31,427 nt of DNA from Chlamydiota bacterium (lineage in GTDB: Bacteria; Auribacterota; JACPWU01). The stretch is taken from the NCBI GenBank assembly GCA_016196885.1, contig JACPWU010000007.1, positions 1 to 31,427 on the forward strand, read 5' to 3'. The notes beneath the pieces are model-generated. The model did no database searches and was not told the origin of the DNA. It worked only from the letters and a program-made list of their open reading frames with translations. The translations under genes were made by a program, and so were the position numbers. Shown in pieces: positions 3,424 to 29,761 of the stretch; position 1 is the stretch's first letter; every line of letters starts with the position of its first letter.

Positions 3424-3475
3424 TTTGTAGTCGCCCGATTCATCGGGCAGCCCCATAAATGGGTCGACACCAAAA
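3424..3475. repeat. Degenerate copy of the GTAGTCGCCC...palindromic repeat family
   Basis: TTGTAGTCGCCCGATTCATCGGGCAGCCCCATAAATGGGTCGACACCAA. It shares the GCCCGAT(G/T)AATCGGGC and GCCCCATAAATGGGG hairpin modules with 18934-19011 and 30548-30632. Confidence 0.55.
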
Positions 3476-3507
3476 TGAGCCTCCTTTTCATAACAAGATC
3501 ACAAAAC

Positions 3508-4104
3508 TTAACGCGCTGAAAATTCTTTGTGATTTCTTACATTTTTGATTTCTAGCTTCCAGAAGCAAGCTTGAATGGATTTTTCTTTCCTGGGACTTGT
3601 CAAATACGGATTTTCCCAATCAAGGTCAAAGATTCTTCTCCAACTTTTTTCTATTTTCTTATGATAAATAAAGTGGGGCGGGGGTTTGACTGTATAAAAC
3701 GATAAGTTTTTCTTGGCAAGTTCAAGTTCAAAAGCTTCTCCGTCATCCTTGGAAGAGGGAAGATACCAATAGTTTAAAACATGATGCCATAGCTCAAAAT
3801 CTGACAAGAGGACAAGCTCGTCTGAAATTTCAAATTCAATGAGGACTCCCTGTTCACCTTTTTCCAGAAAACCTTTGAAACGTAGATCAGGCCTTTTCTT
3901 CTTTGAACTTTGCCATTGATACCAAGCCCATAAAGGCATTGAATTTCTAAAGGGAGCAGGCCCTATTCTCTTTTCCATTTGTCTACTCATCCACCGATAG
4001 GAAGGTAGAAAATGATTAAAGGAAGGGTTTGGATTTGCGTAGAGAACGCTTTTTTCCTTCAAATTTTTCCATTGAGTGGGAGATTGAATTGTCCAGAGGT
4101 GCAT
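3508..4104 (-). CDS. DUF3841-like protein
   Basis: 198 aa: MHLWTIQ..., PLWAWYQWQSSKKKRPDLR, VLLSDFELWHHVLN. Matches my recall of the DUF3841 signature. Confidence 0.65.
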   Translation of the reverse strand: MHLWTIQSPTQWKNLKEKSVLYANPNPSFNHFLPSYRWMSRQMEKRIGPAPFRNSMPLWAWYQWQSSKKKRPDLRFKGFLEKGEQGVLIEFEISDELVLLSDFELWHHVLNYWYLPSSKDDGEAFELELAKKNLSFYTVKPPPHFIYHKKIEKSWRRIFDLDWENPYLTSPRKEKSIQACFWKLEIKNVRNHKEFSAR

Positions 4105-4120
4105 AGAATCACAGGAAAAC

Positions 4121-4318
4121 TTATTGATCCAGCCACTCTTCCAAAGTTTCTAGGAGTTCTCTCCTGCAAATTTTTAAAGTAGGTCCTTTAGCCCAAAGTC
4201 CTGGGAAAGCAGGAATATGACCAAAGAAGATAGGGTTATCTTTTAAAAGTTTATAACGGGCTTTTGAGATTGCCGCTTTAACGTATTTTCTGAACAGGAA
4301 GTTTACAGAGACGGTTTT
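4121..4318 (-). pseudogene. HicB-like (UPF0150) antitoxin remnant with no canonical start and a truncated C-terminus
   Basis: The open frame reads ..VNFLFRKYVKAAISKARYKLLKDNPIFFGHIPAFPGLWAKGPTLKICRRELLETLEEWLDQ-stop. This resembles the HicB-family pattern A.YE.L.D...YYGEIPGF.GVWA...TLE.CR.EL.E.LE.W. It has no ATG/GTG/TTG in frame and overlaps ORF 4278-4460. Confidence 0.4.
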
Positions 4319-4460
4319 CTAAGCCCAGCTCTTTAGGGTGTTGGTTGCTTTCGCTTTTGAGCTGTTGAAGAAACTTTTTAGGGCCAAGTTGATAATACTC
4401 GCGGGCCATTGCTTCACGAATCTTATGCAACTCTTTATCGGGATTTAAATATCTCTTCAT
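4278..4460 (-). CDS. Hypothetical 60-aa protein immediately downstream of the GHKL ATPase gene
   Basis: The ORF starts 3 nt after the GHKL stop. I recognise no family, and its 3' end overlaps the HicB-like remnant. Confidence 0.35.
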   Translation of the reverse strand: MKRYLNPDKELHKIREAMAREYYQLGPKKFLQQLKSESNQHPKELGLENRLCKLPVQKIR

Positions 4461-4463
4461 TTG

Positions 4464-5936
4464 TTAAGCATCCTCACTCAGGGCATCTTTCAAGAGTCTG
4501 CTCTGTCGCTCGAAGGCTTCTCGAGGGGTAGGAGGTTGAGTCATTAGGGCAATTTCCTGAGCCAGGAGTCGCGTGATGTGTAAAGTAAATGTTTGAGGCC
4601 GATTTTCCTCTCTTTTATAAAGGGGGTGGTCGCGGTTGATGTAGATGATGGAATTTTCTGTGAAACATTCAGTCGTCTCGGATCCAAAATTGTCAATACA
4701 GCAGGAGACTCCAAGTTGCCCCAGCTTCACTTTTTTGACAATGGCCTGGGGACTCAGGGATTGAACGGTTGGTTTTTTCTCTTGCTTGGGATGATCCCTT
4801 GCTGAATTATCTGAGGGGTTCTCACCGACGAGTTCTTCTTTTAATTTTTTCTCCTTCTTTTTCGCAATAAGACCGCTCCCTCCAATGCCGCCTTCATCCG
4901 CCAGTGGAATAGGGCCAAAGGGTGAGATTTCAGGATGAACCGACAATGAATGTTTGATCCGTTCAAGGGCATCTTTGAGTACGCGGGAGGCCTTGCGACC
5001 CTGAGTGGTATCACTCAGGTGTGTCAGCATTTTCTTTACCTCTGCCATGACTTTATTCATAATCTCATAGAACATCTTATATTCTTCAGAGTCCAAGACG
5101 AACCCGGAGCGGTCACTGGTGACAGGAAGAAAGTCTGCATGAATCTCGCCCCGGAGTCGTGTCATGGCCCGCCCCCAGGTTTCCATGCCAAAGAGTTCTC
5201 GTTTGACAGTTACTTTCTTCACTTTAACGTCTATCCCCAAATTTAGGGTTGAGGCGGATGAGGCGGGGAGAAGGATCATCTCTCCGTGAATGATTCCGAA
5301 GGGGGTTCCCTCGAGGATGGGGATTTTCTTGCCCTGATATCTTCTGGGGAGAACTTGATAGCCATCCAAAAAAACATCAAAGTTAGGGTCCATCAAGGGA
5401 ACGCTCTCGATGAGACGCTGTTCTACTTTTATCTTGTCAAATTTCTTTGTCAGATGGGTTAATGTAAGGGTGGTGCCATTTCCTCTTTGGGGATCTGCTT
5501 TTAGAAGGGTCAGAGGGAGCTCCCAAGAATCCTGCGACGCCTGCCATGAATCTTTGTCGAAGGTGGCCCGTGCACGGAAATCTCCTTTTTGAGTTTCAAC
5601 TTCAAAAGTCTTTGCAGCCGTGAGGGCAGCAAATTTCCCGATTCCAAATTGTCCAATGCGATCACGGTTCAACCGTTCGGATTTGTTTTGAGCGAGTTTT
5701 TGTTGAGAGCCGATGTTGAAGTATTGTTTAAGACCTTCCAAATCCATTCCGGTTCCATTATCCTGGACAGTCATTGCATCCTCTAAGATGTTGATTCGGA
5801 CTTCTGTTGCATCGGCGTCATAGGCGTTGTTCACAAGCTCTCGGACAAGTTCAACGCTCTCTCCATAAAGCCGTTCGCCGATGGTTACAATGTGGGATTT
5901 ATCAACGGTTACCTTCAAACTGGTTGTCTCTGGCAT
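4464..5936 (-). CDS. Stand-alone GHKL/HSP90-like ATPase (HATPase_c_3-type ATP-binding protein)
   Basis: Bergerat-fold motifs: ELVNNAYDADATEV (N box), QDNGTGMD (G1), IGQFGIGKFAA (G2). They are followed by ~350 aa with no domain I recognise. Confidence 0.85.
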   Translation of the reverse strand: MPETTSLKVTVDKSHIVTIGERLYGESVELVRELVNNAYDADATEVRINILEDAMTVQDNGTGMDLEGLKQYFNIGSQQKLAQNKSERLNRDRIGQFGIGKFAALTAAKTFEVETQKGDFRARATFDKDSWQASQDSWELPLTLLKADPQRGNGTTLTLTHLTKKFDKIKVEQRLIESVPLMDPNFDVFLDGYQVLPRRYQGKKIPILEGTPFGIIHGEMILLPASSASTLNLGIDVKVKKVTVKRELFGMETWGRAMTRLRGEIHADFLPVTSDRSGFVLDSEEYKMFYEIMNKVMAEVKKMLTHLSDTTQGRKASRVLKDALERIKHSLSVHPEISPFGPIPLADEGGIGGSGLIAKKKEKKLKEELVGENPSDNSARDHPKQEKKPTVQSLSPQAIVKKVKLGQLGVSCCIDNFGSETTECFTENSIIYINRDHPLYKREENRPQTFTLHITRLLAQEIALMTQPPTPREAFERQSRLLKDALSEDA

Positions 5937-5992
5937 TCTTGCTTTTCCTCTTTTCGAGCACTATCATACCACAAGCTCTTTTACGGGTGAAG

Positions 5993-6601
5993 CTAAGGTG
6001 GGGTCGGTCGAATGAATTCTAAGAGCATCGAGTAGTCTTCTTTATCCGCTTTTTGTAATGCGGTGATGTAGAAATTCCGGACGTCTTTTTCGGTGTTTAA
6101 ATTGTTGATGTTCCAAGTGAATGGTTTTTGCTTTAATATCCTTTCCAATAAGAGATCTGTCATCAATCTTGCGTGACGACCATTACCGTTCACAAAGAGG
6201 TGAATTGCAACCAAGCGATGATGAAATCGTACTGCAATCTCGTCGGGGGGATAAGTCTTCCCTTCTATCCAATATCGAACGTCGTTCAGTAAGTTGTGTA
6301 GATGAAAAGGAAACTGGGTCCAATTGACTCCAATGTTTTTGCCAGAACGGCGATAATTTCCAGCCCACCGCCATACTTTCCCAAACATTTTCTTATGAAG
6401 TGTCTTGATGAACTTTTCGGTTAAAATCTCATCATTTCTTCGGCAATTGGCTAACCATTGGAGCGCATCATTGATGTTATCTTGTTCAAAACGGTTGAGC
6501 TCTTCTCTTGTGGTGATAGGGTGGATCTTTAATCCTTCTATTTCGTCTGGCTCGAGCGGCGTTGCACCAGGTGGATCAAGATCATCATTCATGGGGGTCA
6601 T
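5993..6601 (-). CDS. Fic-family protein, 'mobile mystery protein B' type
   Basis: Fic motif HLFVNGNGRHARL. The 202-aa size and a 17-nt overlap with an upstream HTH gene match the TIGRFAM mobile mystery protein A/B pair (from recall). Confidence 0.85.
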   Translation of the reverse strand: MTPMNDDLDPPGATPLEPDEIEGLKIHPITTREELNRFEQDNINDALQWLANCRRNDEILTEKFIKTLHKKMFGKVWRWAGNYRRSGKNIGVNWTQFPFHLHNLLNDVRYWIEGKTYPPDEIAVRFHHRLVAIHLFVNGNGRHARLMTDLLLERILKQKPFTWNINNLNTEKDVRNFYITALQKADKEDYSMLLEFIRPTPP

Positions 6602-7058
6602 TCCAGAAATCCTTCGGTGGGGCGATCATTATTTTTTCAATCATGGTTTCAAGAGCTTTTTTTTGTTCTTCATCAGGAAGTCCTTGTTTTTCGAGGCCCA
6701 TCGTTGTGCTGAGTTTTTGAAGCCTTTTGAGGGCAATCACCCTTGCTTGTGTTCGCACCTCTTTCTCGAGTGTCTGCCGGGGAACAAAGCCGTAAACGAA
6801 CTTCATTCCAAGGGCCTTGGCTATTTTTTTTAAAGAAGAAAGTTTCAAATTGCCGCAGGTTTCAGCCTTTTCCAATCGAGAAATCCTAGATTGGTCCAAG
6901 CCGGCCCTTTTCCCCAGTTGAGAGCTCGACATTCCCAAGGCTTCTCGAATGGTTCTCATCCAGCCTTGAGGAGGAGGTTCTAAAGACGCAAAATTCTTTA
7001 AAAGTGTGAGTTTTTTGTCTAGGTGCTCACGAGCAACTTTTCTATTCCAAGAGTCCAT
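6585..7058 (-). CDS. XRE-type HTH protein, 'mobile mystery protein A' type
   Basis: GWMRTIREALGMSSSQLGKRAGLDQSRISRLEKAE is an HTH_XRE pattern. The gene lies upstream of, and overlaps, the Fic gene. Confidence 0.8.
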   Translation of the reverse strand: MDSWNRKVAREHLDKKLTLLKNFASLEPPPQGWMRTIREALGMSSSQLGKRAGLDQSRISRLEKAETCGNLKLSSLKKIAKALGMKFVYGFVPRQTLEKEVRTQARVIALKRLQKLSTTMGLEKQGLPDEEQKKALETMIEKIMIAPPKDFWNDPHE

Positions 7059-7310
7059 ATTTATACTCTTTCTATCATACTAATATAGTATTTTAATTCA
7101 CTATATAGCATAATTATTTTATTGTCAATGCTGTTTAAAGCATATTAATGTCGTGCAATAGAATCAAGGTGATAAAGTGTGTGAATAACGGATTTAGAAG
7201 AGGATTGCTTATTCGTCCCTCTTAAGGATTATGGATATTGGAGAAGTTTCATTAGGAAACGCACCCACGCTGAAATTTTTATTTTTAATAAGGAGATTGG
7301 CCCTTAGGAC

Positions 7311-7466
7311 TCACCATTTCTTCAAGGGTGTCGCCGGGGACATGATAAACATTGAGCAATCGAGCGCTGCGTGTGCTTGCCATTTTATTTGAATCTCGGA
7401 GTTCTTGGCGACCTCTTTTTTATCTGGACAGAGCAGGTCAGCTCGTAAGACATTAAACATTCCCAT
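7311..7466 (-). CDS. Hypothetical small protein (possibly frameshifted)
   Basis: AAGGAG lies 7 nt before ATG 7466 (MGMFNVLRADLLCPDKK..EIQIKW..). An alternative frame after IQIKW also stays open, so the 3' part is uncertain. Confidence 0.3.
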   Translation of the reverse strand: MGMFNVLRADLLCPDKKEVAKNSEIQIKWQAHAALDCSMFIMSPATPLKKW

Positions 7467-7595
7467 GGTATTTCTCCTTAAACCAATTTTTAATATATGA
7501 TAAATTTTATTCATGTGACCATCGAATTTTGTCTTAATTTAAAAAATAGACAAACGTATTCTATTGTAATACACTTAAATGAGAGTGGGGGATGC

Positions 7596-7865
7596 GTGAA
7601 AAACACCGAGATTGAATGGAGTGAAGAGAGCATTGAGCATATTGCTCGTCATGGGGTCTTACCAGAAGAAGTTGAGGAAGTTTGCCGCTCTTCCTTTCAG
7701 TGTAAGGAAAGGGGAAGAGGAGGCTTTTATTACGTAACAGGGCAAACGCATGCTGGCCGGTACCTTTTTATTGTTGTCCGATATCTGGGTCATAGGAAAG
7801 TTAAGGTCATTACGGCCAGAGACATGGACGAAAAAGAAAAATATAGATATAAAAAAAGAAAGTGA
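7596..7865 (+). CDS. brnT: BrnT-family (DUF497) type II toxin
   Basis: GTG 7596 follows a GGGGGA RBS. EIEWSEESIEHIARHGVLPEEVEEV...GRYLFIVV...VKVITARDMDEKEKYRY fits the BrnT pattern. Confidence 0.8.
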   Translation: MKNTEIEWSEESIEHIARHGVLPEEVEEVCRSSFQCKERGRGGFYYVTGQTHAGRYLFIVVRYLGHRKVKVITARDMDEKEKYRYKKRK

Positions 7866-7873
7866 GATGACTT

Positions 7874-8149
7874 ATGGCTAAAATACCGAAGTTTAAATCA
7901 GACAAAGAAGCCGCTGAGTTTTGGGATACACACAGTCTTGCAGACTATGAAGAAGATTTAAGACCTGCCAATGATATCGTGTTTGTGAAACCGAAACGGC
8001 AGGTTGTAACCCTGAGATTGGATAAAAAAATTGTGAATTCGTTAAAGGCTTTGGGAACAAAAAAAGGGATCGGATACTCGGCTATATTGAGGATGTGGAT
8101 TTTAGAAAAGTTTAATCAAGAAATGCATTTGCATGCGAAGAGGCGCTGA
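7874..8149 (+). CDS. brnA: BrnA/CopG-like antitoxin
   Basis: FKSDKEAAEFWDTHSLADY...VTLRLDKKIVNSLKALGTKKGIGYSAILRMWILEK. Typical BrnA, 8 nt downstream of brnT. Confidence 0.8.
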   Translation: MAKIPKFKSDKEAAEFWDTHSLADYEEDLRPANDIVFVKPKRQVVTLRLDKKIVNSLKALGTKKGIGYSAILRMWILEKFNQEMHLHAKRR

Positions 8150-8265
8150 TTTTTAGATTGTAACCTACTTTGGTGCAATACGAAACAGAAAATAGAGAGT
8201 AATTATAGGTGATGTCCGTTAATTTATTAGAACCTTAATAAATACAAGATTTTCGAAACTTTTAT

Positions 8266-8293
8266 TTGACAATTTCTAACAATTTCTGATATT
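8266..8293 (+). promoter_or_regulatory. Sigma70-type promoter, copy A (TTGACA-16 nt-GATATT)
   Basis: TTGACA at 8266-8271 and GATATT at 8288-8293. The whole promoter, spacer included, aligns without gaps to 19201-19230. Confidence 0.6.
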
Positions 8294-8299
8294 GCTATA

Positions 8300-8998
8300 G
8301 ACGCTTTAAGATTTATCCAATGAAGCTCTTCACCCTTATGTATGAATGAGGCCAGGCGAACTTGCGCTGACGGTGCAAGGAAAGCTGGCGCGATGGTGTG
8401 TGACGGTTCCAATTCGGAATTGCGTACATTGTCAGGGAGTGCCGGGACGAGGGGGAAGGGGAGGAGCTTTTCCATTTGAAGGACCTCCTGCTTTTTCAAA
8501 GCAGAATTTCTTTTCTCCAAGGGATTTCTCTGCCCAAAAATAGCCTTTCATCTCTGAAATTCTTGCCGTTATTTCTCATCACGGGTCTGAACTATTTAAA
8601 ACTATTCAAAACAAAGCAGTTCGCGACAAGCTTGAGACTTTCGAGAGCCTCAAAAATTATTCCTTTTTTAGAAGAGAGAATTTTCTTTTTAAACCCAGAT
8701 TTTGCAATAGACGCGAGAACCGAGACGCAAGAGCTTGAGCCAGATTGGCCTGAAGAAAACGGAGGCATACTGGTAAACAGTACGTCGAGGCTTTCTGAAG
8801 GTCAAGATGGACAAGATCTTGCGTCGAATTCCGCGGCCTATTGCAAATTCTGGGTTGAACATTCAAGCTGCCGGGCATGAAAGGGATGAAAGACGATGGG
8901 AGAGAAATAAGAAATGATGGTTTGAGACGGGTCTCAAGACCCCTATATCTCGGATGAAAAATTCATTAAAAACACAATCATAATAAGGAAATACTCAA
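8300..8998 (+). promoter_or_regulatory. Long untranslated leader A upstream of OMP1 (module 1 about 8300-8610, module 2 about 8655-8870, 16-nt motif 8870-8885)
   Basis: Module 1 is homologous to 19236-19460 and module 2 to 26390-26770. Substitutions between copies do not follow codon periodicity. Confidence 0.55.
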
Positions 8999-9658
8999 AT
9001 GAAGAAGTTAGTCATGATGGGACTCGTGATGTTGACTTGCAGTTTTGCGGCGGCTGAAGTGGCCGAAGTTGAGAAAGGATTTTATGTTGAAGGTCAGGCT
9101 TCGGCCATGATTCCCACGGAGGATGGCCTGGATACGGGGATCTATGCAAATGGCAGATTGGGGTATTGCCTCAATCATTATATTGCGCTTGAGGTGGAGT
9201 CCGGGTACGCAAATATTAACGAGGATCTGGACGTGGTGGATTATGATCTCATCCCCTTGCTCATCAATGCACGTATTCACCCGATCAAGGGAGAGAAATT
9301 TGATCCTTATCTGATGGGTGGCTTGGGTGTGCTGTTTGTAAATGTTAATGTGGATGAGGAGGCTGCGATTGATGAGGCATCGGCCTTGCTGGGTGTGGAT
9401 TTGAGAGCTTTGAATACGAATGTTTCTGTGGATGCAGATGCCGATGAAGCCTTTGCAGGACAAATCGGAATCGGGGCCCTCTATCATTTCAATGACAACA
9501 TTGCGGCCTTTTTAGAGGTTCGAGGTCTTTTTGCACAGACAAATGTAAATGTGAAAGAAATCGTAACTTCGGATATAGGTAGCAGTGAGACAGAAGTTGA
9601 TACTGAAGTAAAGTTCAATTCGGTTATAGTGGGCGGTGGCTTAAGGATCAAGTTCTAA
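8999..9658 (+). CDS. Small outer-membrane beta-barrel protein (porin/OmpW-like family), paralog 1
   Basis: Signal peptide MKKLVMMGLVMLTCSFAAAE, alternating beta-strand pattern, and C-terminal GGGLRIKF. About four-fifths identical by eye to 24890-25552. Confidence 0.85.
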   Translation: MKKLVMMGLVMLTCSFAAAEVAEVEKGFYVEGQASAMIPTEDGLDTGIYANGRLGYCLNHYIALEVESGYANINEDLDVVDYDLIPLLINARIHPIKGEKFDPYLMGGLGVLFVNVNVDEEAAIDEASALLGVDLRALNTNVSVDADADEAFAGQIGIGALYHFNDNIAAFLEVRGLFAQTNVNVKEIVTSDIGSSETEVDTEVKFNSVIVGGGLRIKF

Positions 9659-9672
9659 GCTTTTTTAACAAA

Positions 9673-9732
9673 AAGCCCCGCCTCATTTAAAAATCGTCAC
9701 ACCCCCGACGTTGGGGCGGGGCTTGATTTTTT
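9673..9732 (+). terminator. Rho-independent terminator with compound stem
   Basis: AAGCCCCGCC (9673-9682) pairs with GGCGGGGCTT (9715-9724). There is an inner CGTC..GACG hairpin, followed by a T-run at 9727-9732. It is conserved at 25578-25638. Confidence 0.7.
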
Positions 9733-11433: not shown

Positions 11434-11661
11434 ATGGAAAACGAGTTAGGGGTTCAGCCGCTTGATGTTGTGATGAGTCAGCTTGGGATTTCTAACAGTG
11501 ATTTAGTGCATGTATCAAAAGAGCAACTGACTTTCAAGATGGTTCGAAAGGGTCGCATGGGTCGCCGGATTACCCCCAATATTCAAAATAAGATTCAAAG
11601 GGCGTTACAAGCCGCGAGCCCCACGAACGCGTTTACGCTTAAGGATCTTTTTAATTATTGA
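11434..11661 (+). CDS. Hypothetical 75-aa protein
   Basis: Clean ORF. Its last ~95 nt are duplicated, with an in-frame stop, at 12949-13048. Confidence 0.5.
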   Translation: MENELGVQPLDVVMSQLGISNSDLVHVSKEQLTFKMVRKGRMGRRITPNIQNKIQRALQAASPTNAFTLKDLFNY

Positions 11662-11721
11662 GGGGGTGGAATAGATTTTCAGATAGGTGTGGTTTTTAAA
11701 ACAACGATTTCAATTTAGTTG

Positions 11722-12948: not shown

Positions 12949-13048
12949 GATTACTCTTACAATATTCAAAATAAGATTCAAAGGGCTCTCTAGGCCACGA
13001 GTCCCACGAACGCATTTATGCTTAAGGATCTTTTTAATTATTGAGGGG
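12949..13048 (+). repeat. Degenerate duplicate of the 3' end of ORF 11434-11661 (gene fragment)
   Basis: Aligns base-for-base with 11568-11665 with roughly a dozen mismatches. It would encode NIQNKIQRAL-stop-ATSPTNAFMLKDLFNY. Confidence 0.75.
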
Positions 13049-13126
13049 AGGGGATGCATCAAGGTTGAAATTTGTGATCTTGATGCAAATTTTATTGTTT
13101 TTGAAAAACATGTATTTTCTTCACAT

Positions 13127-18858: not shown

Positions 18859-18933
18859 TTCTTTAAACCCCTGTCCGTCATCTATGAACATTCATGCCGA
18901 CTGAGGTCGGCACAAAGGGGGATGAAAATCACC

Positions 18934-19011
18934 CTTGTAGTCGCCCCATTTATGGGGCGGTCTATGACATTGGGGCATTGGGCATTGCCCGATAAATCGG
19001 GCGACTACAAG
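18934..19011. repeat. Palindromic repeat-family copy (three-hairpin MITE/REP-like)
   Basis: CTTGTAGTCGCCC...GGGCGACTACAAG outer arms enclose GCCCCATTTATGGGGC and GCCCGATAAATCGGGC hairpins. It is preceded by the separate hairpin TGCCGAC-TGAG-GTCGGCA (18895-18912). Confidence 0.75.
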
Positions 19012-19200
19012 CCATCATGAGTCATTGTATAAGAAAGAGTAGAGACTATTTTCAGATGAAGGTTCAAAATTCTAAGTTGGCAGAAGAGGGGAAAGAAGTT
19101 TATTTTTATAACATATTGCAGATAAGCAAGTTCCGAATTTAAAAAATGATGAATTCTGTTCTTGGGTAGGGATAGGGGAATATTTTTTTAAAAATTTTTG

Positions 19201-19230
19201 TTGACAACTTCTCAACGTTCCTGGTATTAC
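19201..19230 (+). promoter_or_regulatory. Sigma70-type promoter, copy B (TTGACA-17 nt-GTATTA)
   Basis: TTGACA at 19201-19206 and GTATTA at 19224-19229, preceded by an A/T-rich tract. It aligns without gaps to 8266-8293. Confidence 0.6.
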
Positions 19231-19235
19231 TATTT

Positions 19236-19828
19236 CCGGTTTAAGATTTATCCACAACGAAGCTCTTTACCCTTATGATGAGCAGTGCCGGGACGAGGGA
19301 AAGACGGGGGGGAGCTTCTTCATTGAGGGCCAACCTGCTTTCTCAAGGCGGCGTTTCTTTTCATCAAGGGACTTCTCTGCCCAAAAATAGCCTTTCATTT
19401 CTGAGATTCTTGCCGCCATTTCTCATCGCGAGTTTAAAGTGTCTAAAGTTCTTCACGAAACTTTCTTTTTGTCTACATTCAATCAACCAGCCGGGAATAA
19501 AAGGGGGTCAAGGGAAAGAGGAGAGTTAAAACAACGATAACCTCTGAAAAACCCTTATTTCTGGAGACCTCTCAAAAAGGTCCCAGAGGGAAGCGCGCCT
19601 GCAAGCGAAGGAGGAGGCGTACGTTTGTAGGGTACGCCGCACGACTGAGCGAAGCAGGAAGCGTTGTCAGATGGGCCTTTTTCAGAGGTCTCAACAACGA
19701 TAACTTTTTTATTTATGTAGGGGCACATACCATGATGGACACGCGCGAAGAGAAATGTTTTGTGTTCCCGCAGTTCAGGAGTTTTCCTGGATAAACCGTC
19801 TTATATTGCACAAGAAAGGATTAAATTT
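19236..19828 (+). promoter_or_regulatory. Long untranslated leader B upstream of giant gene 2 (module 1 about 19236-19460, 16-nt motif 19490-19505, inserted IR element 19542-19692)
   Basis: Homologous to leader A module 1. The motif-plus-purine tract aligns with 24806-24860. Confidence 0.55.
19530..19704. mobile_element. MITE-like inverted-repeat element flanked by a perfect 12-nt direct repeat
   Basis: AACAACGATAAC occurs at 19530-19541 and 19693-19704. Arms GAGACCTCTCAAAAAGGTCCCA (about 19563-19584) and TGGGCCTTTTTCAGAGGTCTC (about 19672-19692). Inner hairpin GGCGTAC..GTACGCC. The paralogous leader at 24846-24870 lacks it. Confidence 0.65.
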
Positions 19829-22800
19829 ATGTTAAGGAAAATGTTGGGAATGTTTTTAGATAGAAGGGTTAGCAGTTCTTTTTTGGCTTTAGGGATTTTG
19901 CTGGTTAGCACTTGCAGAATTTGGGGTTGGTCTACGGAGGAAGTGGGTGCTTCTAAGAGCTTTTCTGACATGGGCCAAAGATGGCTCGTCTTAGATGGCT
20001 CGGGCAATCCTCACATTGCCTATGGAGGTGATTCTTTGTATCACGCCTATTATGATGGGACTTCTTGGCATACAGAGACTGTTGATACTTCAACTGGGGT
20101 AGGTTCTTTTACCTCTATTGGTATCAATTCAAGTGGATATATGTGTATCAGTTATTATGATGAGACAAATGCTGATCTCAAATACGCGACGAACGTGAGC
20201 GGCTCTTGGGTGAAAACGACAGTGGATTCTACAGGGTCCGTGGGTCAGTACACCTCCCTTGCTTTGGATTCAAATGGGAAGGCGCATATCAGTTATTATG
20301 ATAATACAAATGGCGATCTCAAATACGCGACGAATGCCAGTGGCTCTTGGGTGAAAACAACGGTGGATTCTTCAGGATCTGTGGGTGGATACACCTCTCT
20401 TGCGTTGAATTCAAGTGGTAAGGCGCATATTAGCTATTATGATAATACAAATGGCGATCTCAAGTACGCGACGAATGCCAGTGGTTCTTGGGTGACAACG
20501 ACAGTGGATTCTTCAGGGTCTGTGGGTTGGTACACCTCTCTTGCTTTGGATTCAAATGGGAAGGCTCATATCAGTTATTATGATGCTTCATACGGTTATC
20601 TCAAATACGCGACGAATGAAAGTGGATCTTGGGCAACATACACAGTGGATAGAGAGAACAATGTGGGGAAATATACCTCGATTGCTCTGGATTCAAGTGG
20701 GAAGATCTATATCAGTTATTATGATGATACAAACGATGATTTGATGTACGTGACGGGTGACACCACGGGTAACAATGCGTCTTGGAATATTACCTCTTAT
20801 TCAAGTTCAGCAAATATCGGTTTGTATACCTCGATTGCCGTAGATTCGAGCGGCCGTGCCCATGTCAGTCATTATGATAGCAGCAATAAAGCGATCGAAT
20901 ATACGCTCATCAGTACCGAGGGACAATCACCAGCGACAACGACGGTAGATGTTTCGGAAGACAATGGTTTGTACACCTCACTTGTCCTGGATTCAAATGG
21001 TAAGGCGCATATCAGCTATTATGATAATGCAAATGCTGATCTCAAATACACGACGAATGCCAGCGGCTCTTGGGTGACAACGACGGTGGATTCTTCAGGG
21101 TCTGTGGGCTCGAACACCTCCCTCGCCTTGGATTCAAATGGGAAGGTGCATATCAGCTATTATGATATCACAAATGGCGATCTCAAATATGCGACGAATG
21201 CCAGCGGCTCTTGGGTGAAAACGACCGTGGATTCTACAATAACTGTGGGTTGGCACACCTCCCTTGCCTTGGATTCAAATGGGAAGGTGCATATCAGTTA
21301 TTATGATATCACAAATGGCGATCTCAAATATGCGACGAATGCCAGCGGCTCTTGGGTGAAAACAGTGGTGGATTCTTCAGGATATGTCGGTGGATACACC
21401 TCCCTTGCCCTGGATTCAAATGGGAAGGTGCATATCAGTTATTATGATTGGACCAATAGTGATCTCAAATACGCAACGAATGCGAGTGGCTCTTGGGTGA
21501 AAACGACGGTGGATTCTTCAGGATATGGGGGTTACTACACCTCCCTTGCCCTGGATTCGAGTGGTAAAGTTCATATCAGCCATGCCGATCCCGTAAATGA
21601 TGATCTCAAATATGCGACGAATGCCAGTGGTTCTTGGGTGACAGAGACGGTGGATTCTACAGGATATGTGGGTCAATACACCTCCCTTGCCTTGGATTCA
21701 AATGGGAAGGTGCATGTCAGTTATTATGATAATACAAATGGCGATCTCAAATACGCGACGAATGCAAGCGGCTCCTGGGTGGCAGAAGCTCTGGATTCTT
21801 CTGGATCTGTGGGTTCATACACCTCTCTTGCCTTAGATTCAAATGACAAGGTTCATGTCAGTTATTATGATGATACAAATAGTGCTCTCAAATACATCAC
21901 CAATGCAGACTCTCCTATCGCAGGGGGTGATAGCTATGCTTTGGATGAAGCAGCTTCGCTAGCGGGGTCAAGTGTTTTGGCCAATGACAGTGATCCTCAG
22001 GGGAGTTCTTTGACTGCAAGTTTGGTCAGGGGTCCTGCCTATGCGAGTTCATTTGGCCTGAATAGTGATGGGACTTTTTCTTATACCCATGATGGCTCTG
22101 AAACCACAAGTGACAGTTTTACTTATCAGGCCAGTGATGGGTCTCACAGTTCTTCAGAGACGACGGTGACCCTCACTGTCAATCCCGTCAATGATGCCCC
22201 TCTCAATTCTCTTCCAAGCGCTCAAGGTATTGATGAAGATACTTCATTAACATTTTCGAGTGCCAATGGCAATCTCATCAGCCTCTCGGATGCGGATGCA
22301 GGTTCAAGCGCTGTTCAGGTGAGTCTTTCCACCAGTAACGGGGCGCTTACGCTGGGAAGTAGTTTCGGCTTGACGTTTAGCACAGGAGACGGGACAGAAG
22401 ATATTTCCATGACCTTTACGGGAACGATGACAAATATCAATGCGGCCCTGAATGGCATGGTGTTTTCACCCACTGCCAATAGCAATGGTTCTGTTTCCCT
22501 TTCCATGACCACAAACGATCAGGGGAACACGGGTTCAGGAGGGGCCCTGTCGGATGCGGACAGTCTCACGATCACCGTTAATTCTATCAATGATGTCCCT
22601 CAGATAGAGGAGGGTCAGTCGTTTAGTGTAGATGAAACGGCCTCGGACGGGACCGTGGTGGGAACTGTTATCGCAAATGATGCCGATGGAGATGCGATTG
22701 CCTTTAGCATTGTGGGAGGCAATACCGATGGCACATTTAGCATAGATTCTTCAGGGGTGATTCGAGTTGCGGATTCCGACAGTCTAGAAGGGTCTTACAC

Positions 22801-24706
22801 TCTCTCGATTACGGCGACGGATGGAACGCTCACCTCTTTAGAAACGGAGGTTGGGATTGCTGTGTCGCCCGACACCGATGACGATGGGATTCTGGATATC
22901 GATGAAGTGTCTTTGGGAACGGATCCTTTGAATCCCGATACCGATGGCGATGGTTTCACGGATGGTGAAGAATTGGAGGCGGGAACGGATCCTTTAGATG
23001 CGACCAGTCTTCCAGCCATCATCACGATTACGGCAGACAATCAATATAAGCTTTACGTGAATGGGGTGGAAGTGGGGAGCGGGAGTGATTGGGCGAGCCC
23101 CGATAGTTACCTTGTCCATTTGTCAGATGATGGGACGGGCGAGGTTAGCATTGAGGCGACGGACGTGGGTGGGATTGCGAGTATTGCCTGCCAGATTCAA
23201 TATGGGGATGAAATTCAAGTTTCAGATTTCACCTGGCAAGTTTCTACTTCTCTCCCATCGGCCTGGCCCTCTCCTACAAATACCTCTAGCATGCCGGGTG
23301 CCACAGAGCATTACGCGATGGGGGAAGGTCCTTGGGGAAGCACGGTTTCGAGTGCCTTTGAAGACAAGGTAAAATGGATTTGGTCCAGTGATCCTAACAA
23401 TCACGATCAGGTCTATCTTTGGACGAAATTCAACCCCCATCAGAACGGCATTTTTAGGGGCAGCGTGGATAACGTCGGAACCATTTTTAAAAATGGTGAA
23501 ACGATTGCCACGGGCTCTGATTGGTCGCAAGGTGTTTTTGCGGCAGCCGAGGTTCGCGCAGGCGATATTTTTGCCATCGAAGCCCGTGATGAAGGTGGCA
23601 TTGGAGCGGCTCTGGGTGAAATCACCTGGCGTGATGAGAATGGCATCACCCACACTTGGGCCTCGAACAGCAACTGGAAAATGGTCACCAGCATGTCCGA
23701 AGGCTGGGAGACAACTCTGGATGACACGCTTTCAGACTCCACTGAAATAGGAGCGCTCGGGGTGTCACCTTGGGGCAAGGACGGGAATCTTTCCGGAATC
23801 TCCCCTAAGGCGCAGTGGATTGGACCTGTGGATCCCTATGGGACCGATGAATTTGGGGTTATCACTCAGATTCCGGAAATCCTGCTCGAGATCACGGCGG
23901 ACAATGCGGCCACGGTGCGTGTGAATGGGACAGAGATTGGAAGCCTGTCAGACTGGACGCAGGGTGCCACGTTGGGTCTTTCAAATTTATCCGATGGGGA
24001 CACAATCGTTATCGAGGCCGAGAATTTCGGTGGCCCGGCAGGTGTCCTTGCTGTGTTGTACACACCCGACGAGACCCTTGTCACCAACTCCACTTGGAAA
24101 GCCTCTCGGGATGGCTCAACTTGGGTGCAGGCAAGCGCGTATGGAGCCAATGGTGTCTCGCCTTGGGGAAGCTTTCCTAATATTCCCGATGACGCCCAAT
24201 GGATTTGGACCTATTCAACAGACCACAGCCCTGTCTTCTTGAGCTTCACCCTGGGTGAGAGTAATACAGAGGAAGATTTGACCACTGTTCAAATCGCAGC
24301 CGACAACGCCTTCGAGCTTTATTGGAATGGCACACTCGTTGCTTCCGGAGATGATTGGAGCACTCTTCAGCGCGTGCCCATTTCCGGCACAGGTGTCTTG
24401 GCTGTGAAGGCGATAGATCTGGGTTACAAGGCAGGACTCATTCTCAGTGCGACAGGTTCCCATGAATTTGTTTCAGACGCTTCTTGGAAAGTTTCTACTG
24501 TGGAGGAAACGGGCTGGACAGACGTAGGTTTTGATGATTCTCATTGGAGCCCCGCGACAAGTTGGGGACCTTACGGGACAGAACCTTGGAACAGCAATGT
24601 CTCTGGTTTTTCAGACACGTCAGCAGAATGGATATGGACGGACAAGAATCAAACGGGATCAAGCGACATTGATTCCACCGTTTACTTTAGGAAAGTGATC
24701 GAATAA
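19829..24706 (+). CDS. Giant secreted multidomain protein 2. Modules: 14 x 47-aa propeller-type repeats, cadherin/VCBS-like modules, TSP3-type Ca-binding repeats, 4 C-terminal jelly-roll modules
   Basis: Start chosen at ATG 19829 (MLRKMLGMF..SSFLALGILLVSTC signal/anchor). The repeat unit is YTSLALDSNGKAHISYYDNTNGDLKYATNASGSWVKTTVDSSGSVG. Also VNPVNDAP and IANDADGD (cadherin-like), DTDDDG..DTDGDGFTDGEE (TSP3-like), and ITADN..LYVNG..GSDW four times. Confidence 0.9.
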   Translation: MLRKMLGMFLDRRVSSSFLALGILLVSTCRIWGWSTEEVGASKSFSDMGQRWLVLDGSGNPHIAYGGDSLYHAYYDGTSWHTETVDTSTGVGSFTSIGINSSGYMCISYYDETNADLKYATNVSGSWVKTTVDSTGSVGQYTSLALDSNGKAHISYYDNTNGDLKYATNASGSWVKTTVDSSGSVGGYTSLALNSSGKAHISYYDNTNGDLKYATNASGSWVTTTVDSSGSVGWYTSLALDSNGKAHISYYDASYGYLKYATNESGSWATYTVDRENNVGKYTSIALDSSGKIYISYYDDTNDDLMYVTGDTTGNNASWNITSYSSSANIGLYTSIAVDSSGRAHVSHYDSSNKAIEYTLISTEGQSPATTTVDVSEDNGLYTSLVLDSNGKAHISYYDNANADLKYTTNASGSWVTTTVDSSGSVGSNTSLALDSNGKVHISYYDITNGDLKYATNASGSWVKTTVDSTITVGWHTSLALDSNGKVHISYYDITNGDLKYATNASGSWVKTVVDSSGYVGGYTSLALDSNGKVHISYYDWTNSDLKYATNASGSWVKTTVDSSGYGGYYTSLALDSSGKVHISHADPVNDDLKYATNASGSWVTETVDSTGYVGQYTSLALDSNGKVHVSYYDNTNGDLKYATNASGSWVAEALDSSGSVGSYTSLALDSNDKVHVSYYDDTNSALKYITNADSPIAGGDSYALDEAASLAGSSVLANDSDPQGSSLTASLVRGPAYASSFGLNSDGTFSYTHDGSETTSDSFTYQASDGSHSSSETTVTLTVNPVNDAPLNSLPSAQGIDEDTSLTFSSANGNLISLSDADAGSSAVQVSLSTSNGALTLGSSFGLTFSTGDGTEDISMTFTGTMTNINAALNGMVFSPTANSNGSVSLSMTTNDQGNTGSGGALSDADSLTITVNSINDVPQIEEGQSFSVDETASDGTVVGTVIANDADGDAIAFSIVGGNTDGTFSIDSSGVIRVADSDSLEGSYTLSITATDGTLTSLETEVGIAVSPDTDDDGILDIDEVSLGTDPLNPDTDGDGFTDGEELEAGTDPLDATSLPAIITITADNQYKLYVNGVEVGSGSDWASPDSYLVHLSDDGTGEVSIEATDVGGIASIACQIQYGDEIQVSDFTWQVSTSLPSAWPSPTNTSSMPGATEHYAMGEGPWGSTVSSAFEDKVKWIWSSDPNNHDQVYLWTKFNPHQNGIFRGSVDNVGTIFKNGETIATGSDWSQGVFAAAEVRAGDIFAIEARDEGGIGAALGEITWRDENGITHTWASNSNWKMVTSMSEGWETTLDDTLSDSTEIGALGVSPWGKDGNLSGISPKAQWIGPVDPYGTDEFGVITQIPEILLEITADNAATVRVNGTEIGSLSDWTQGATLGLSNLSDGDTIVIEAENFGGPAGVLAVLYTPDETLVTNSTWKASRDGSTWVQASAYGANGVSPWGSFPNIPDDAQWIWTYSTDHSPVFLSFTLGESNTEEDLTTVQIAADNAFELYWNGTLVASGDDWSTLQRVPISGTGVLAVKAIDLGYKAGLILSATGSHEFVSDASWKVSTVEETGWTDVGFDDSHWSPATSWGPYGTEPWNSNVSGFSDTSAEWIWTDKNQTGSSDIDSTVYFRKVIE

Positions 24707-24724
24707 ACCAGTCCATCACTTGTT

Positions 24725-24782
24725 CGGGCATCCTCCTCGCCTCCTATTGGGAGGGGGGTTGCCCGGGCACGGACCTGTTTTT
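24725..24782 (+). terminator. Hairpin plus T-run after giant gene 2 (possible terminator or attenuator)
   Basis: CGGGCA..CCTCC-TATT-GGGAGG..TGCCCG at 24725-24765, then CTGTTTTT. Confidence 0.45.
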
Positions 24783-24889
24783 GGAAGAGTCACTTTATTC
24801 AACTGGCCGGGAATGAAAGGGGACAAAGGGAAAGAGGAAGAATTACAACAACAGTTTTGTAAAAAACAAATAGAAAAGGAAAGATTCAA

Positions 24890-25552
24890 ATGAAAAAGTT
24901 AGTGATCGTAGGGTTGATGATGGTGTTATCAGGTGGTTTTGCAATGGCCGAGATGGATGAGGTCAAGAAAGGGTTTTACATTGAAGGTCAGGTTTCAGCC
25001 ATGATTCCTACAGAGGATGGCTTGCAGACGGGGGTCTATTCCAATGGCAGATTGGGATACCGCTTCAATGATTATATGGGTCTTGAGGTGGAGTCCGGCT
25101 ATGCAAATATCAGCGAGGATCCGGACGTGGTGGATTATGATCTCATCCCCTTGCTTCTCAATGCACGTCTTCACCCGATCAAGGGAGAGAAATTTGATCC
25201 TTATCTTGTGGGAGGTTTGGGCGTTCTCTTCGTAGATGTGAATGTGGATGAAGAGGGCGTGGTAGATGAGGCATCGGCCTTGCTAGGTGTGGACTTGAGT
25301 GCTTTTAACACAAGTGTTTCTGTGGATGCGGATGCTGATGAGGCCTTTGCGGGGCAAATCGGGATCGGGGCCCTCTATCATTTCAATGACAACATTGCAG
25401 CGTTTTTGGAGGTTCGAGGCTTTTTCGCCCAGACAGATGTACATGTGAAAGAAATCGTCACTTCAGATGTTGGGAGTGCCAAGACAGAAATAGATGATGA
25501 AATGAAGTTTCATTCCGTGGTGGTGGGCGGCGGTTTGAGGATTAAGTTCTAG
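24890..25552 (+). CDS. Small outer-membrane beta-barrel protein, paralog 2
   Basis: Signal MKKLVIVGLMMVLSGGFAMAE and C-terminal GGGLRIKF. About four-fifths identical by eye to OMP1. Confidence 0.85.
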   Translation: MKKLVIVGLMMVLSGGFAMAEMDEVKKGFYIEGQVSAMIPTEDGLQTGVYSNGRLGYRFNDYMGLEVESGYANISEDPDVVDYDLIPLLLNARLHPIKGEKFDPYLVGGLGVLFVDVNVDEEGVVDEASALLGVDLSAFNTSVSVDADADEAFAGQIGIGALYHFNDNIAAFLEVRGFFAQTDVHVKEIVTSDVGSAKTEIDDEMKFHSVVVGGGLRIKF

Positions 25553-25577
25553 CCTGCGGGGTAGAGATTTTTAGCAA

Positions 25578-25638
25578 AAGCCCCGCCTCACTTTAAAATC
25601 GTCAATACCCCCCTGACGCTGGGGCGGGGCTTTGTTTT
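25578..25638 (+). terminator. Rho-independent terminator, paralog of 9673-9732
   Basis: AAGCCCCGCC (25578-25587) pairs with GGCGGGGCTT (25623-25632), followed by TTTGTTTT. Confidence 0.7.
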
Positions 25639-25664
25639 GCAATGATAATATAAGGAAGATAAAA

Positions 25665-26285: not shown

Positions 26286-26389
26286 AGTAAGAAAAACAAG
26301 TGGCTGGGTCTAGGGCAATAAGGGGGGAACGGGGGTTGCTTCCTTCAATCAATACCCCCTCTTAGATAAGAGGGGTCTGGGGAGTTAGT

Positions 26390-26770: not shown

Positions 26771-26833
26771 CCTCTCTTCAAAAATATTAAAATAATCTCT
26801 AGCGTCTCATGCATTCATTCTCACGAAGCGTGT

Positions 26834-29750: not shown

Positions 29751-29761
29751 TATTTTTATTT

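What the first reader, a model, noticed from the sequence alone, without database searches (positions are those of the whole stretch)
8266..8640. Duplicated promoter plus conserved untranslated leader (module 1): candidate undescribed cis-regulatory RNA, copy A
- **Seen:** From the -35 box onward, 8266-8340 and 8438-8610 align almost base-for-base with 19201-19460. The alignment covers the promoter spacer and a core ...CAAGGGA(T/C)TTCTCTGCCCAAAAATAGCCTTTCAT(C/T)TCTGA(A/G)ATTCTTGCCG...
- **Not coding:** The ORFs that cover it (8476-8880, 19275-19529) differ only by substitutions at codon positions 1 and 2. In the core there are five substitution sites, none at a third position, and all change the amino acid. 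So conservation is at the nucleotide/RNA level.
- **Possible hairpin:** CTTTT-CCATTT-GAAGG in A and CTTC-TTCATT-GAGG in B occupy the same position with different pairs.
- **Complementarity:** The core 8-mer CCTTTCAT (8544-8551) is the exact complement of ATGAAAGG inside the recurring 16-nt motif (8877-8884).
- **Inference:** The leader could sequester that purine-rich, RBS-like motif.
Basis: partly seen in the sequence, partly recalled or inferred. Interest (0 to 1): 0.75.

Follow-up and report, generated by a model that had tools for sequence, protein, structure and literature searches.

The report
Duplicated promoter-leader of outer-membrane genes
An uncultured Chlamydiota genome carries two ~80% identical copies of a promoter plus a ~280-base untranslated leader upstream of duplicated outer-membrane-protein operons; the repeat is real and non-coding, but nothing yet shows it is a structured regulatory RNA.

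Summary
The duplication is real. Window 8250-8345 and 8438-8608 match 19185-19281 and 19284-19455 at 78-80% identity, and copy A carries an extra ~90-nt GC-rich insert. No reading frame behaves like a gene, and no Rfam family, protein, plasmid, phage or IS match exists. The copies are the 5' ends of two duplicated transcription units. Each has an A/T-rich tract, a perfect TTGACA, a TGnTATT extended -10, the leader, "module 3", a 219/220-aa outer-membrane beta-barrel gene and its terminator. Two leader blocks are far more similar than neutral sites of the adjacent paralogous genes. The first ~40 transcribed nt are 88% identical and a 64-nt pyrimidine-rich core is 91% identical, against 54% at four-fold sites. 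The promoter spacer and leader tail sit at the neutral level. This points to constraint on sequence, though gene-conversion-like patches in the OMP genes keep a neutral rival alive. Evidence for RNA structure is weak: MFE z is about 0, substitutions hit predicted pairs at chance level, and only two small + strand hairpins are kept. The 8-mer complementarity to module 3 is at chance level. Only this one population carries the element, so covariation cannot be tested. My verdict is an ordinary duplicated promoter and leader of unknown regulatory role.

The parts
8240..8265 (+). A/T-rich UP-like tract upstream of the -35 box (copy A)
   Evidence: GC 0.18-0.25. It is A/T-rich in both copies, but only 16/31 columns are identical.
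8266..8271 (+). -35 hexamer TTGACA (copy A)
   Evidence: It matches the consensus perfectly and is 6/6 identical in copy B.
8287..8295 (+). Extended -10, TGaTATTGC, after an 18-nt spacer; the inferred transcription start is near 8302
   Evidence: The pattern TTGACA-N15-17-TGnTAT occurs only at the two copies in the window, against 0.07 expected. The -10 is 5/6 identical while the spacer is only 11/18. The start site is inferred, not mapped.
8303..8340 (+). Conserved 5' block of the leader (TTTAAGATTTATCCA...GAAGCTCTTCACCCTTATG)
   Evidence: 35/40 columns are identical, P 6e-6 against the four-fold-site baseline. A 5' hairpin predicted in A is broken in B (read).
8341..8437 (+). GC-rich insert present only in copy A, folding as two hairpins
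   Evidence: It appears as a gap in copy B. Folding energy is -38.2 kcal/mol, z -3.25. It has no other copy in the window.
8438..8489 (+). G-rich segment containing hairpin H0 (8459-8489)
   Evidence: 39/52 columns are identical. H0 folds at -12.9 kcal/mol in both copies, but in different registers.
8488..8515 (+). Hairpin H1 (8488-8504, 7 bp) plus a U-rich tract; a weak intrinsic-terminator-like site
   Evidence: The terminator scan finds it at the homologous place in both copies. Two A-to-G changes in B keep pairing as G-U on the + strand only.
8505..8526 (+). Hairpin H2
   Evidence: It folds the same way in both copies. Its closing pair changes from A-U to G-C. The structure is lost on the minus strand of copy B.
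8518..8581 (+). Pyrimidine-rich core; 8526-8551 is invariant between the copies
   Evidence: 58/64 columns are identical, P 2e-10 against the four-fold baseline. The consensus fold and the full-leader fold of copy B (mean unpaired probability 0.70) leave it mostly unpaired, but the full-leader fold of copy A pairs it with module 3 (0.28).
8582..8612 (+). Tail of module 1, at neutral-level similarity
   Evidence: 19/31 columns are identical.
19185..19459 (+). Copy B of the whole module. -35 at 19201-19206; TGgTATTAC at 19222-19230; 5' block 19238-19277; H0 19305-19337; H1 19335-19351; H2 19353-19372; core 19365-19428
   Evidence: It is identical in the sibling assembly L004.
8689..8859 (+). Module 2: an inserted ~170-nt near-perfect hairpin between module 1 and module 3 in copy A only
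   Evidence: It is 70% identical to its own reverse complement over 173 columns. Folding energy is -86.7 kcal/mol, z -10.8. It is absent at the homologous point of copy B.
8857..8902 (+). Module 3 (ACATTCA..GCCGGG.ATGAAAGGG..), a purine-rich motif shared with 19474-19530 and 24793-24838
   Evidence: (family D9).
8999..9658 (+). OMP1, a 219-aa outer-membrane beta-barrel protein and the first gene downstream of copy A
   Evidence: Pfam OMP_b-brl, E 4e-13. It is 80% identical in amino acids to OMP2.
9663..9730 (+). GC-rich terminator hairpin after OMP1, duplicated after OMP2 (25568-25638)
   Evidence: (families D16, D19).
19829..24706 (+). Giant repeat-rich surface protein (1625 aa), the first gene downstream of copy B
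   Evidence: The gene call in sibling contig L004 gives this start. The 47-aa repeats appear.
24890..25552 (+). OMP2, the paralogue of OMP1 and second gene downstream of copy B, preceded by its own module 3

Best explanation
Copy A (about 8246-8612) and copy B (about 19181-19459) are the paralogous front ends of two duplicated transcription units for a small outer-membrane beta-barrel protein.

Each copy is a sigma-70-type promoter followed by about 280 nt of untranslated leader. The promoter has an A/T-rich tract, a perfect TTGACA, an 18-nt spacer and a TGnTATTnC extended -10. Copy A is longer because of a ~90-nt hairpin insert. Module 3, the OMP gene and its terminator were duplicated together with the promoter and leader.

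Later, locus 2 acquired a giant surface-protein gene between two module-3 copies. Locus 1 acquired two hairpin inserts.

The likely mode of action is that the shared promoter and leader place both operons under the same control. Inside the leader, three adjacent + strand hairpins (H0, H1, H2) precede a 64-nt pyrimidine-rich core with 26 invariant bases. H1 is a weak terminator-like or pause site. I infer that the core is a sequence-specific contact for a trans-acting protein or small RNA, not part of a compact aptamer.

Shown:
- the duplication and its extent
- absence of coding signal
- promoter hexamers conserved while the spacer is not
- two leader blocks conserved far above the synonymous-site level
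- H1 and H2 retained on the + strand only

Inferred:
- the transcription start
- read-through into the genes
- any regulatory role of H1 or the core
For: - **Extent of duplication.** It covers promoter to leader, module 3, and OMP gene plus terminator at 82% nt and 80% aa identity.
- **Promoter.** TTGACA-N15-17-TGnTAT occurs only at the two copies, against 0.07 expected. The -35 is 6/6 and the -10 is 5/6 identical, while the spacer is 11/18 and the upstream tract 16/31.
- **Neutral baseline.** In OMP1/OMP2, four-fold sites are 54% identical (n=80), third positions 66%, and pS is 0.47.
- **Constraint.** The core is 58/64 identical (P 2e-10) and the 5' block 35/40 (P 6e-6). The tail is 19/31, at the neutral level.
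- **Non-coding.** This holds in all six frames, with no protein relatives.
- **Hairpins.** H1 and H2 fold identically in both copies on the + strand (-10.3 and -9.9 kcal/mol). The fold is lost on the minus strand of copy B. There are two G-U-compatible changes and one compensatory change, and none that breaks a pair.
- **Terminator-like call.** It falls at the homologous position in both copies.
Against: - No transcription data exist, so the start site and read-through are inferred.
- The -10 ends in C rather than the usual T.
- H1 is weak and its U-tract is interrupted. Real terminators here, such as 9663-9730, are long GC-rich stems.
- Whole-module folding is no more stable than shuffles (z -0.01 and +0.16).
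- Pairs predicted from one copy are kept in the other only at chance level.
- The OMP genes contain an 85-nt patch with only 3 mismatches, third positions included. Gene conversion could therefore also explain the high-identity leader blocks.
- The nearest available OMP orthologue (42% aa, L005/L006) has only a ~200-nt upstream region without the module.
- Promoter-like sequences closer to the genes cannot be excluded.
Confidence: 0.45

Rival explanations
1. Only the promoter is functional. The leader is neutral sequence that looks conserved because the paralogous loci exchange short tracts by gene conversion, or because the module was copied more recently than the genes.
For: - OMP1/OMP2 show patches of near identity that include third codon positions. 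One is 85 nt with 3 mismatches and another is a 33-nt identical run. Third-position identity is 0.93 in codons 75-104 against 0.43-0.70 elsewhere.
- Within the 3' part of the module, a 26-nt identical run is only marginally unexpected for 80% identity (my estimate, about 0.1).
- There is no structural or pairing signal above chance.
Against: - Similarity drops to the neutral level exactly in the promoter spacer, the upstream tract and the tail. It stays high in both hexamers, the 5' block and the core.
- Conversion tracts would not be expected to skip an 18-nt spacer lying between two conserved hexamers.
Confidence: 0.25
2. Module 1 is an independent small-RNA gene. It would run from the promoter to H1 (about 120 nt in B, about 215 nt in A) or to the U-run at 8682-8690 / 19462-19470, and act in trans, for example on envelope-protein mRNAs.
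For: - A promoter is followed by a terminator-like hairpin with a U-rich tract at the same place in both copies.
- The pyrimidine-rich core is complementary to purine-rich, start-codon-like motifs (ATGAAAGG).
Against: - H1 is weak, and the most conserved block lies downstream of it.
- The later U-runs are preceded only by marginal A/U hairpins (-5.2 and -1.7 kcal/mol, z > 0).
- Complementarity to targets is at chance level.
Confidence: 0.12
3. Module 1 is one module of a dispersed, mosaic intergenic repeat family (BOX/ERIC/Correia-like, or a 'mobile promoter') with more copies elsewhere in the genome.
For: - The same window holds other repeated intergenic modules. These include module 3 (at least 4 copies), palindromic hairpin elements (8689-8859, 26465-26757, 19548-19710) and REP-like hairpins.
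- The first genes downstream of the two copies are unrelated.
Against: - Only two copies exist in 31 kb plus about 4 kb of extra sibling DNA, and both lie upstream of paralogous OMP genes.
- The module has no terminal inverted repeats.
- There are no matches in plasmids, phages, or genome, metagenome or viral collections.
Confidence: 0.1
4. The core encodes the start of a small minus-strand protein. The candidates are MKGYFWAEKSLGEKKFCFEKAGGPS... of 39 aa in A (ATG at 8551) and 41 aa in B (ATG at 19398).
For: - Both copies keep the ATG and an AAGAA about 10 nt upstream.
- The first 25 residues are kept, with 4 synonymous against 5 non-synonymous codon changes. This is the best ratio of the six frames.
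Against: - The C-terminal halves are frameshifted relative to each other.
- Codons 1-9 are invariant at third positions too, which coding constraint does not explain.
- There is no conserved promoter on that strand.
- There are no Pfam or database relatives. The two 20-mer hits in phage genes share only the KGYFWA motif by construction of the search.
Confidence: 0.04

Closest known systems
Long 5' untranslated leaders of outer-membrane protein genes, such as the E. coli ompA 5' UTR
   Same: Both are non-coding leaders upstream of a small beta-barrel OMP gene that begin at a strong promoter and contain hairpins. The ompA leader controls mRNA stability and is a target of small RNAs.
   Different: There is no sequence or Rfam similarity. 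This leader is several times longer: about 700 nt to OMP1 and about 590 nt to the giant gene. The 5'-terminal hairpin is not conserved between the copies. No function has been tested.
Putative mobile promoters / promoter reuse (Nijveen, Matus-Garcia and van Passel 2012, PMC3575422)
   Same: Both are upstream regions at least 80% identical over at least 50 nt within one genome, lying in front of unrelated first genes and unknown to Rfam.
   Different: The region lies far outside the -150 to -50 window used in that survey. A paralogous OMP gene and terminator follow in both loci, so this is a segmental duplication of a transcription unit and not a promoter moving alone.
Riboswitch or attenuator leaders
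   Same: It is a promoter-proximal conserved non-coding block followed by a terminator-like hairpin with a U-tract.
   Different: No Rfam family matches, stability does not exceed shuffles, and covariation is not testable. The terminator is weak, and the most conserved block lies after it instead of before it.
Mosaic intergenic repeats (pneumococcal BOX, enterobacterial ERIC, neisserial Correia elements; named in PMC3575422 as promoter-carrying repeats)
   Same: The leaders are mosaics of reusable modules and carry inserted palindromic hairpin elements.
   Different: Module 1 itself is not palindromic, has no terminal inverted repeats and is seen only twice.
ops/JUMPStart and other processive-antitermination leader elements of surface-structure operons (from my own knowledge)
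   Same: Both are short invariant sequences in a long leader ahead of genes for cell-surface components, one of which is a 4.9-kb gene.
   Different: The ops consensus GGCGGTAG is absent from both leaders. No NusG paralogue was seen among the window's genes that were examined. Locus 1 has only a 660-nt gene before its terminator.

Membership tests
Any described RNA family (Rfam 15) | Covariance-model score at or above the family's gathering threshold | tested here: not met
   There were 0 matches in the whole window. At E <= 10 only eukaryotic lncRNA, miRNA or snoRNA noise appeared, far below threshold.
Riboswitch / transcription-attenuator leader | Conserved ligand- or factor-binding fold supported by covariation | tested here: inconclusive
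   Only two distinct sequences exist. The consensus fold has SCI 0.76 against 0.55 in column shuffles. However, pairs predicted from one copy are kept in the other only 12/28 and 12/24 times, and the shuffle control is uninformative (240/500).
Riboswitch / transcription-attenuator leader | Expression platform: an intrinsic terminator or an SD-sequestering helix | tested here: inconclusive
   The terminator-like hairpin H1 is conserved in place, but it is weak. Pairing of the 5' block with the start regions is no better than shuffles or other genes' start regions.
Riboswitch / transcription-attenuator leader | Location in the transcribed 5' leader of the regulated gene | not testable with these tools
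   The promoter motif is conserved, but the transcription start and read-through need RNA data.
Putative mobile promoter (PMC3575422) | At least 80% identity over at least 50 nt between upstream regions of one genome | tested here: met
   80.3% over 173 columns.
Putative mobile promoter (PMC3575422) | Region lies at -150 to -50 from the start codon, and the flanking coding sequences are not paralogous | tested here: not met
   The module lies about 390-730 nt (A) and 370-640 nt (B) upstream. Paralogous OMP genes follow in both loci.
IS / MITE terminus | Terminal inverted repeats, a transposase nearby, or similarity to known mobile elements | tested here: not met
   No inverted repeats bound the module. 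None of the 20 ORFs scanned against Pfam is a transposase. There is no match in plasmids or phages.
Protein-coding gene or pseudogene | A frame open in both copies with excess synonymous change, or protein homologues | tested here: not met
   The + frame 0 has 3 synonymous against 17 non-synonymous changes, and the other frames contain stops. No homologues were found. The minus-strand 39/41-aa ORF is frameshifted after residue 25.
RfaH ops / JUMPStart leader element | GGCGGTAG core in the leader | tested here: not met
   No match with up to 1 mismatch in either leader.

The most novel reading that the evidence does not exclude
The leader is a new, lineage-restricted class of cis-regulatory element for envelope-protein operons. 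In this reading, a factor or small RNA recognises the invariant single-stranded core, and the H0/H1 overlap works as a switchable attenuator. Long-range pairing of the pyrimidine-rich half with purine-rich sequence 70-130 nt upstream of the start codons also contributes. In B, 19417-19433 with 19741-19757 scores p about 0.003. In A, 8494-8567 with 8873-8925 scores p about 0.01.
Probability: 0.15. Interest if true: 0.5.

Novelty: new member of a known kind. Interest (0 to 1): 0.25.

Why it matters
If the leader is functional, two envelope operons of an uncultured Chlamydiota lineage share one control region, and a 26-nt invariant sequence could be used to look for the factor that reads it. As it stands, it mainly illustrates how a whole transcription unit (promoter, leader, gene, terminator) is duplicated and then remodelled by gene and hairpin-element insertions. 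It also shows that conservation between paralogous leaders must be measured against synonymous sites and against gene conversion before an RNA function is claimed.

Tried and rejected
**Searches for relatives**
- The core 20-mer had no hit in 185,579 species genomes.
- It had one chance hit in metagenomes (L001, flanks unrelated) and one in viral contigs (L008, same phage-protein motif).
- Searching for OMP relatives in genome contigs gave only a 35% partial match in Kuenenia.
- OMP homologues are the window's own two proteins plus one 42% relative whose locus lacks the module.
- A search with the giant protein was swamped by repeat-domain hits.
- Translated-ORF searches returned only the window's own ORF.
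- Contigs that could be fetched (L004, L007, L009) are 99.99-100% identical to the window, so they add no diversity.
- An nhmmer profile of the two copies found no third copy in any held DNA.

**Hypotheses rejected**
- Coding on the + strand.
- tRNA or tmRNA.
- IS end.
- ops element.
- The 5' block acting as an anti-SD for the start regions.
- Module 3 being an inverted copy of the core in both loci. This is significant only in A (p 0.01); in B p is 0.44-0.996.
- A conserved 5'-terminal hairpin: two of six pairs are broken in B.

Full report
**Source and context.** The window is a complete 31,427-nt contig of a metagenome-assembled genome that NCBI labels "Chlamydiae/Chlamydiota bacterium". 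The 219-aa protein at 8999-9658 is 100% identical to MBI1882748.1 / MBI3265657.1. A sibling assembly (GCA_016178005.1, locus L004) matches window 18887-31306 at 99.99%. A Logan contig (L007) matches 3434-8716 at 100%. Genes near the finding are:
- a BrnT/CopG-like toxin-antitoxin pair upstream of copy A
- two paralogous outer-membrane beta-barrel proteins, OMP1 (8999-9658) and OMP2 (24890-25552)
- two giant repeat-rich surface proteins
- several histidine kinases

**The observation.** The duplication is real.
- 8438-8608 aligns to 19284-19455 at 80.3% over 173 columns (E 3e-37).
- 8250-8345 aligns to 19185-19281 at 77.6% over 98 columns.
- The 22-nt centre of the core occurs exactly twice in the window, with 0 expected.
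- Copy A carries an extra GC-rich segment (8341-8437) that folds into two hairpins (z -3.25).

- Across the whole aligned ORF stretch, 6 of 26 substitutions are at third positions. Only within the core are all six at positions 1 or 2.
- The small CTTTT/GAAGG hairpin exists in both copies, but in a shifted register.
- The 8-mer complementarity is exact but not above chance.

**What the repeat is part of.** The similarity begins about 20 nt upstream of a perfect TTGACA. It runs through the leader and, in copy B, continues directly into "module 3" (19474-19530).
- In copy A, module 3 (8857-8902) is separated from module 1 by a ~170-nt near-perfect hairpin (8689-8859; -86.7 kcal/mol, z -10.8). That hairpin is absent from B at the homologous point.
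- Module 3 occurs a third time at 24793-24838, directly upstream of OMP2.
- OMP1 and OMP2 are 80% identical in amino acids and 82% in nucleotides. Their GC-rich terminators are also duplicated.

The simplest history is duplication of a whole transcription unit: promoter, leader, module 3, OMP gene, terminator. Afterwards the giant gene (19829-24706, start taken from the L004 gene call) was inserted between two module-3 copies in locus 2. Hairpin elements were inserted in locus 1. The genes after the terminators, and the two giant genes, are not alignable as paralogues.

**Promoter.** Both copies have an A/T-rich tract, TTGACA, an 18-nt spacer and TGnTATT(G/A)C.
- The pattern TTGACA-N15-17-TGnTAT occurs only at these two places in the window, against 0.07 expected.
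- The hexamers are 6/6 and 5/6 identical, while the spacer is 11/18 and the upstream tract 16/31.
- This is the pattern expected of a promoter under selection.
- The generic scan reports copy A's promoter with a different -10 register and misses copy B's.
- The -10 ends in C, which is unusual.
- The transcription start (about 8302 / 19237) is inferred.

**Coding is rejected.**
- The + frame open in both copies shows 3 synonymous against 17 non-synonymous codon changes, and the other + frames have stops.
- A profile of the translated core found no database candidate.
- An exhaustive search with copy B's 84-aa ORF returned only copy A's own ORF and two unrelated repeat proteins.
- Pfam gave nothing.
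- A minus-strand ORF starting at the invariant ATG (8551 / 19398) keeps 25 N-terminal residues. It then becomes frameshifted between the copies, and its first nine codons are invariant even at third positions. Coding does not explain that conservation.

**Conservation against a neutral yardstick.**
- In OMP1/OMP2, four-fold degenerate sites are 54% identical (n=80), third positions 66%, pS is 0.47 and pN 0.10.
- Against the four-fold baseline, the core (8518-8581) is 58/64 identical (P 2e-10) and the 5' block (8303-8340) 35/40 (P 6e-6).
- The G-rich segment is 75% identical and the H1/H2 segment 79%.
- The tail, spacer and upstream tract are at 52-61%.
- This mosaic argues for constraint on specific leader sequences.
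- The caveat is that the OMP genes contain an 85-nt patch with three mismatches and a 33-nt identical run, third positions included. Gene conversion between the loci is therefore plausible and could mimic constraint.

**RNA structure.**
- Whole-module folds are no more stable than dinucleotide shuffles on either strand (z -0.01, +0.16, +1.53, +0.63).
- RNAalifold gives a 43-pair consensus with no broken pair. Its structure-conservation index is 0.76, against 0.55 in column shuffles (p about 0.013). That structure was fitted to both sequences.
- When the fold is predicted from one copy and scored on the other, changed pairs are compatible only 12/28 and 12/24 times. Substitutions are not depleted in paired columns.
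- Locally, three adjacent hairpins are kept on the + strand.
  - H0 is at 8459-8489 / 19305-19337 (-12.9 kcal/mol in both, different registers).
  - H1 is at 8488-8504 / 19335-19351 and is followed by a U-rich tract. The terminator scan calls it in both copies.
  - H2 is at 8505-8526 / 19353-19372.
- H1 has two A-to-G changes that remain G-U pairs. H2 has one A-U to G-C compensatory change. On the minus strand the fold is lost in copy B.
- With two sequences this cannot reach significance.

**Pairing hypotheses.**
- The core's best duplex with the downstream leader is no better than for shuffled cores (p 0.38 in A, 0.30 in B).
- The 5' block pairs with the start regions no better than shuffles or than with other genes' start regions.
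- Two long-range complementarities stand out. In B, 19417-19433 matches 19741-19757 at 15/17 (p about 0.003). In A, the reverse complement of 8494-8567 is colinear with 8873-8925 (p about 0.01).
- Neither is conserved in the other copy, and both were found post hoc.
- Full-leader folds leave the core centre mostly unpaired in B (mean unpaired probability 0.70) but pair it with module 3 in A (0.28).

**Relatives elsewhere.** None were found.
- Rfam gave no match.
- The core 20-mer is absent from 185,579 species genomes.
- It gave only chance hits inside a phage gene in metagenome and viral contigs.
- Plasmid and phage collections gave nothing.
- The nearest OMP orthologue available (42% aa, with a syntenic abhydrolase gene) has a ~200-nt upstream region without the module.
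- An nhmmer profile found no third copy in any DNA held.

**Conclusion.** The finding is a genuine duplicated promoter plus non-coding leader belonging to a duplicated OMP transcription unit. The most likely role is common transcriptional and leader-level control of two envelope operons, with a sequence-specific (not fold-specific) conserved core and a weak terminator-like hairpin. A structured cis-regulatory RNA remains possible but unsupported. Gene conversion of a neutral leader, an independent small RNA and a dispersed repeat are the live rivals. Comparison with putative mobile promoters (PMC3575422) shows resemblance but not membership. Interest is modest.

Noticed in passing
window 8689-8859; related 26465-26757: A ~170-nt near-perfect hairpin (-86.7 kcal/mol, z -10.8) is inserted in leader A and absent at the homologous point of leader B. 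A longer relative lies upstream of the histidine-kinase gene at 26834 (z -4.3). The two share internal motifs and the tips AACCCA/TGGGT, but the inner part of the outer stem differs in sequence while still pairing.
   Followed up: partly
window 19548-19710: An unrelated ~165-nt imperfect palindrome lies in leader B between module 3 and the giant gene (z -5.3). Both leaders therefore carry a very long hairpin, which could be a double-strand-specific RNase target.
   Followed up: partly
window 8857, 18884, 19474, 24793; L004 ~3990: There is a recurrent 'module 3' family (ACATTCA..GCCG[hairpin]CGGCA..AAAGGGG.ATGAAA). The 18884 copy carries a full hairpin (GCCGACTGAGGTCGGC). It is also exactly where the sibling assembly L004 departs from the window, with LpxK upstream there instead of the first giant gene. 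This suggests rearrangement or an assembly break at this repeat.
   Followed up: partly
window 3425-3479, 18935-19010, 30548-30638: REP-like paired hairpins (TTGTAGTCGCCCCATTTATGGGGCGGT and inverse partners) recur in intergenic regions (families D8, D12, D13).
   Followed up: no
window 11577-11672 and 12960-13055: A second duplicated upstream region (88% identity over 96 nt, ending in GATCTTTTTAATTATTGAGGGG) lies next to toxin-antitoxin and nucleotidyltransferase genes (family D6).
   Followed up: no
window ~9228-9312 vs ~25122-25206: An 85-nt patch of OMP1/OMP2 has only 3 mismatches, including at third codon positions, within genes that are otherwise 47% diverged at synonymous sites. This looks like a gene-conversion tract.
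   Followed up: partly
window 19760 vs 19829: The mechanical ORF for the second giant protein starts at TTG 19760. The sibling assembly's gene call starts at ATG 19829, which is preceded by AAGAAAGGA and is the likelier start.
   Followed up: partly
window 20063-21931 and 22868-22995: The giant surface protein contains 13 tandem 141-nt (47-aa) repeats (YTSLALDSNGKAHISYYD...) and thrombospondin-type-3-like Asp-rich repeats. Database relatives are dominated by this repeat region.
   Followed up: no
window 24720-24790: A GC-rich hairpin followed by TGTTTTTGG sits between the giant gene and OMP2. OMP2 may therefore not be fully co-transcribed with the giant gene (read).
   Followed up: no
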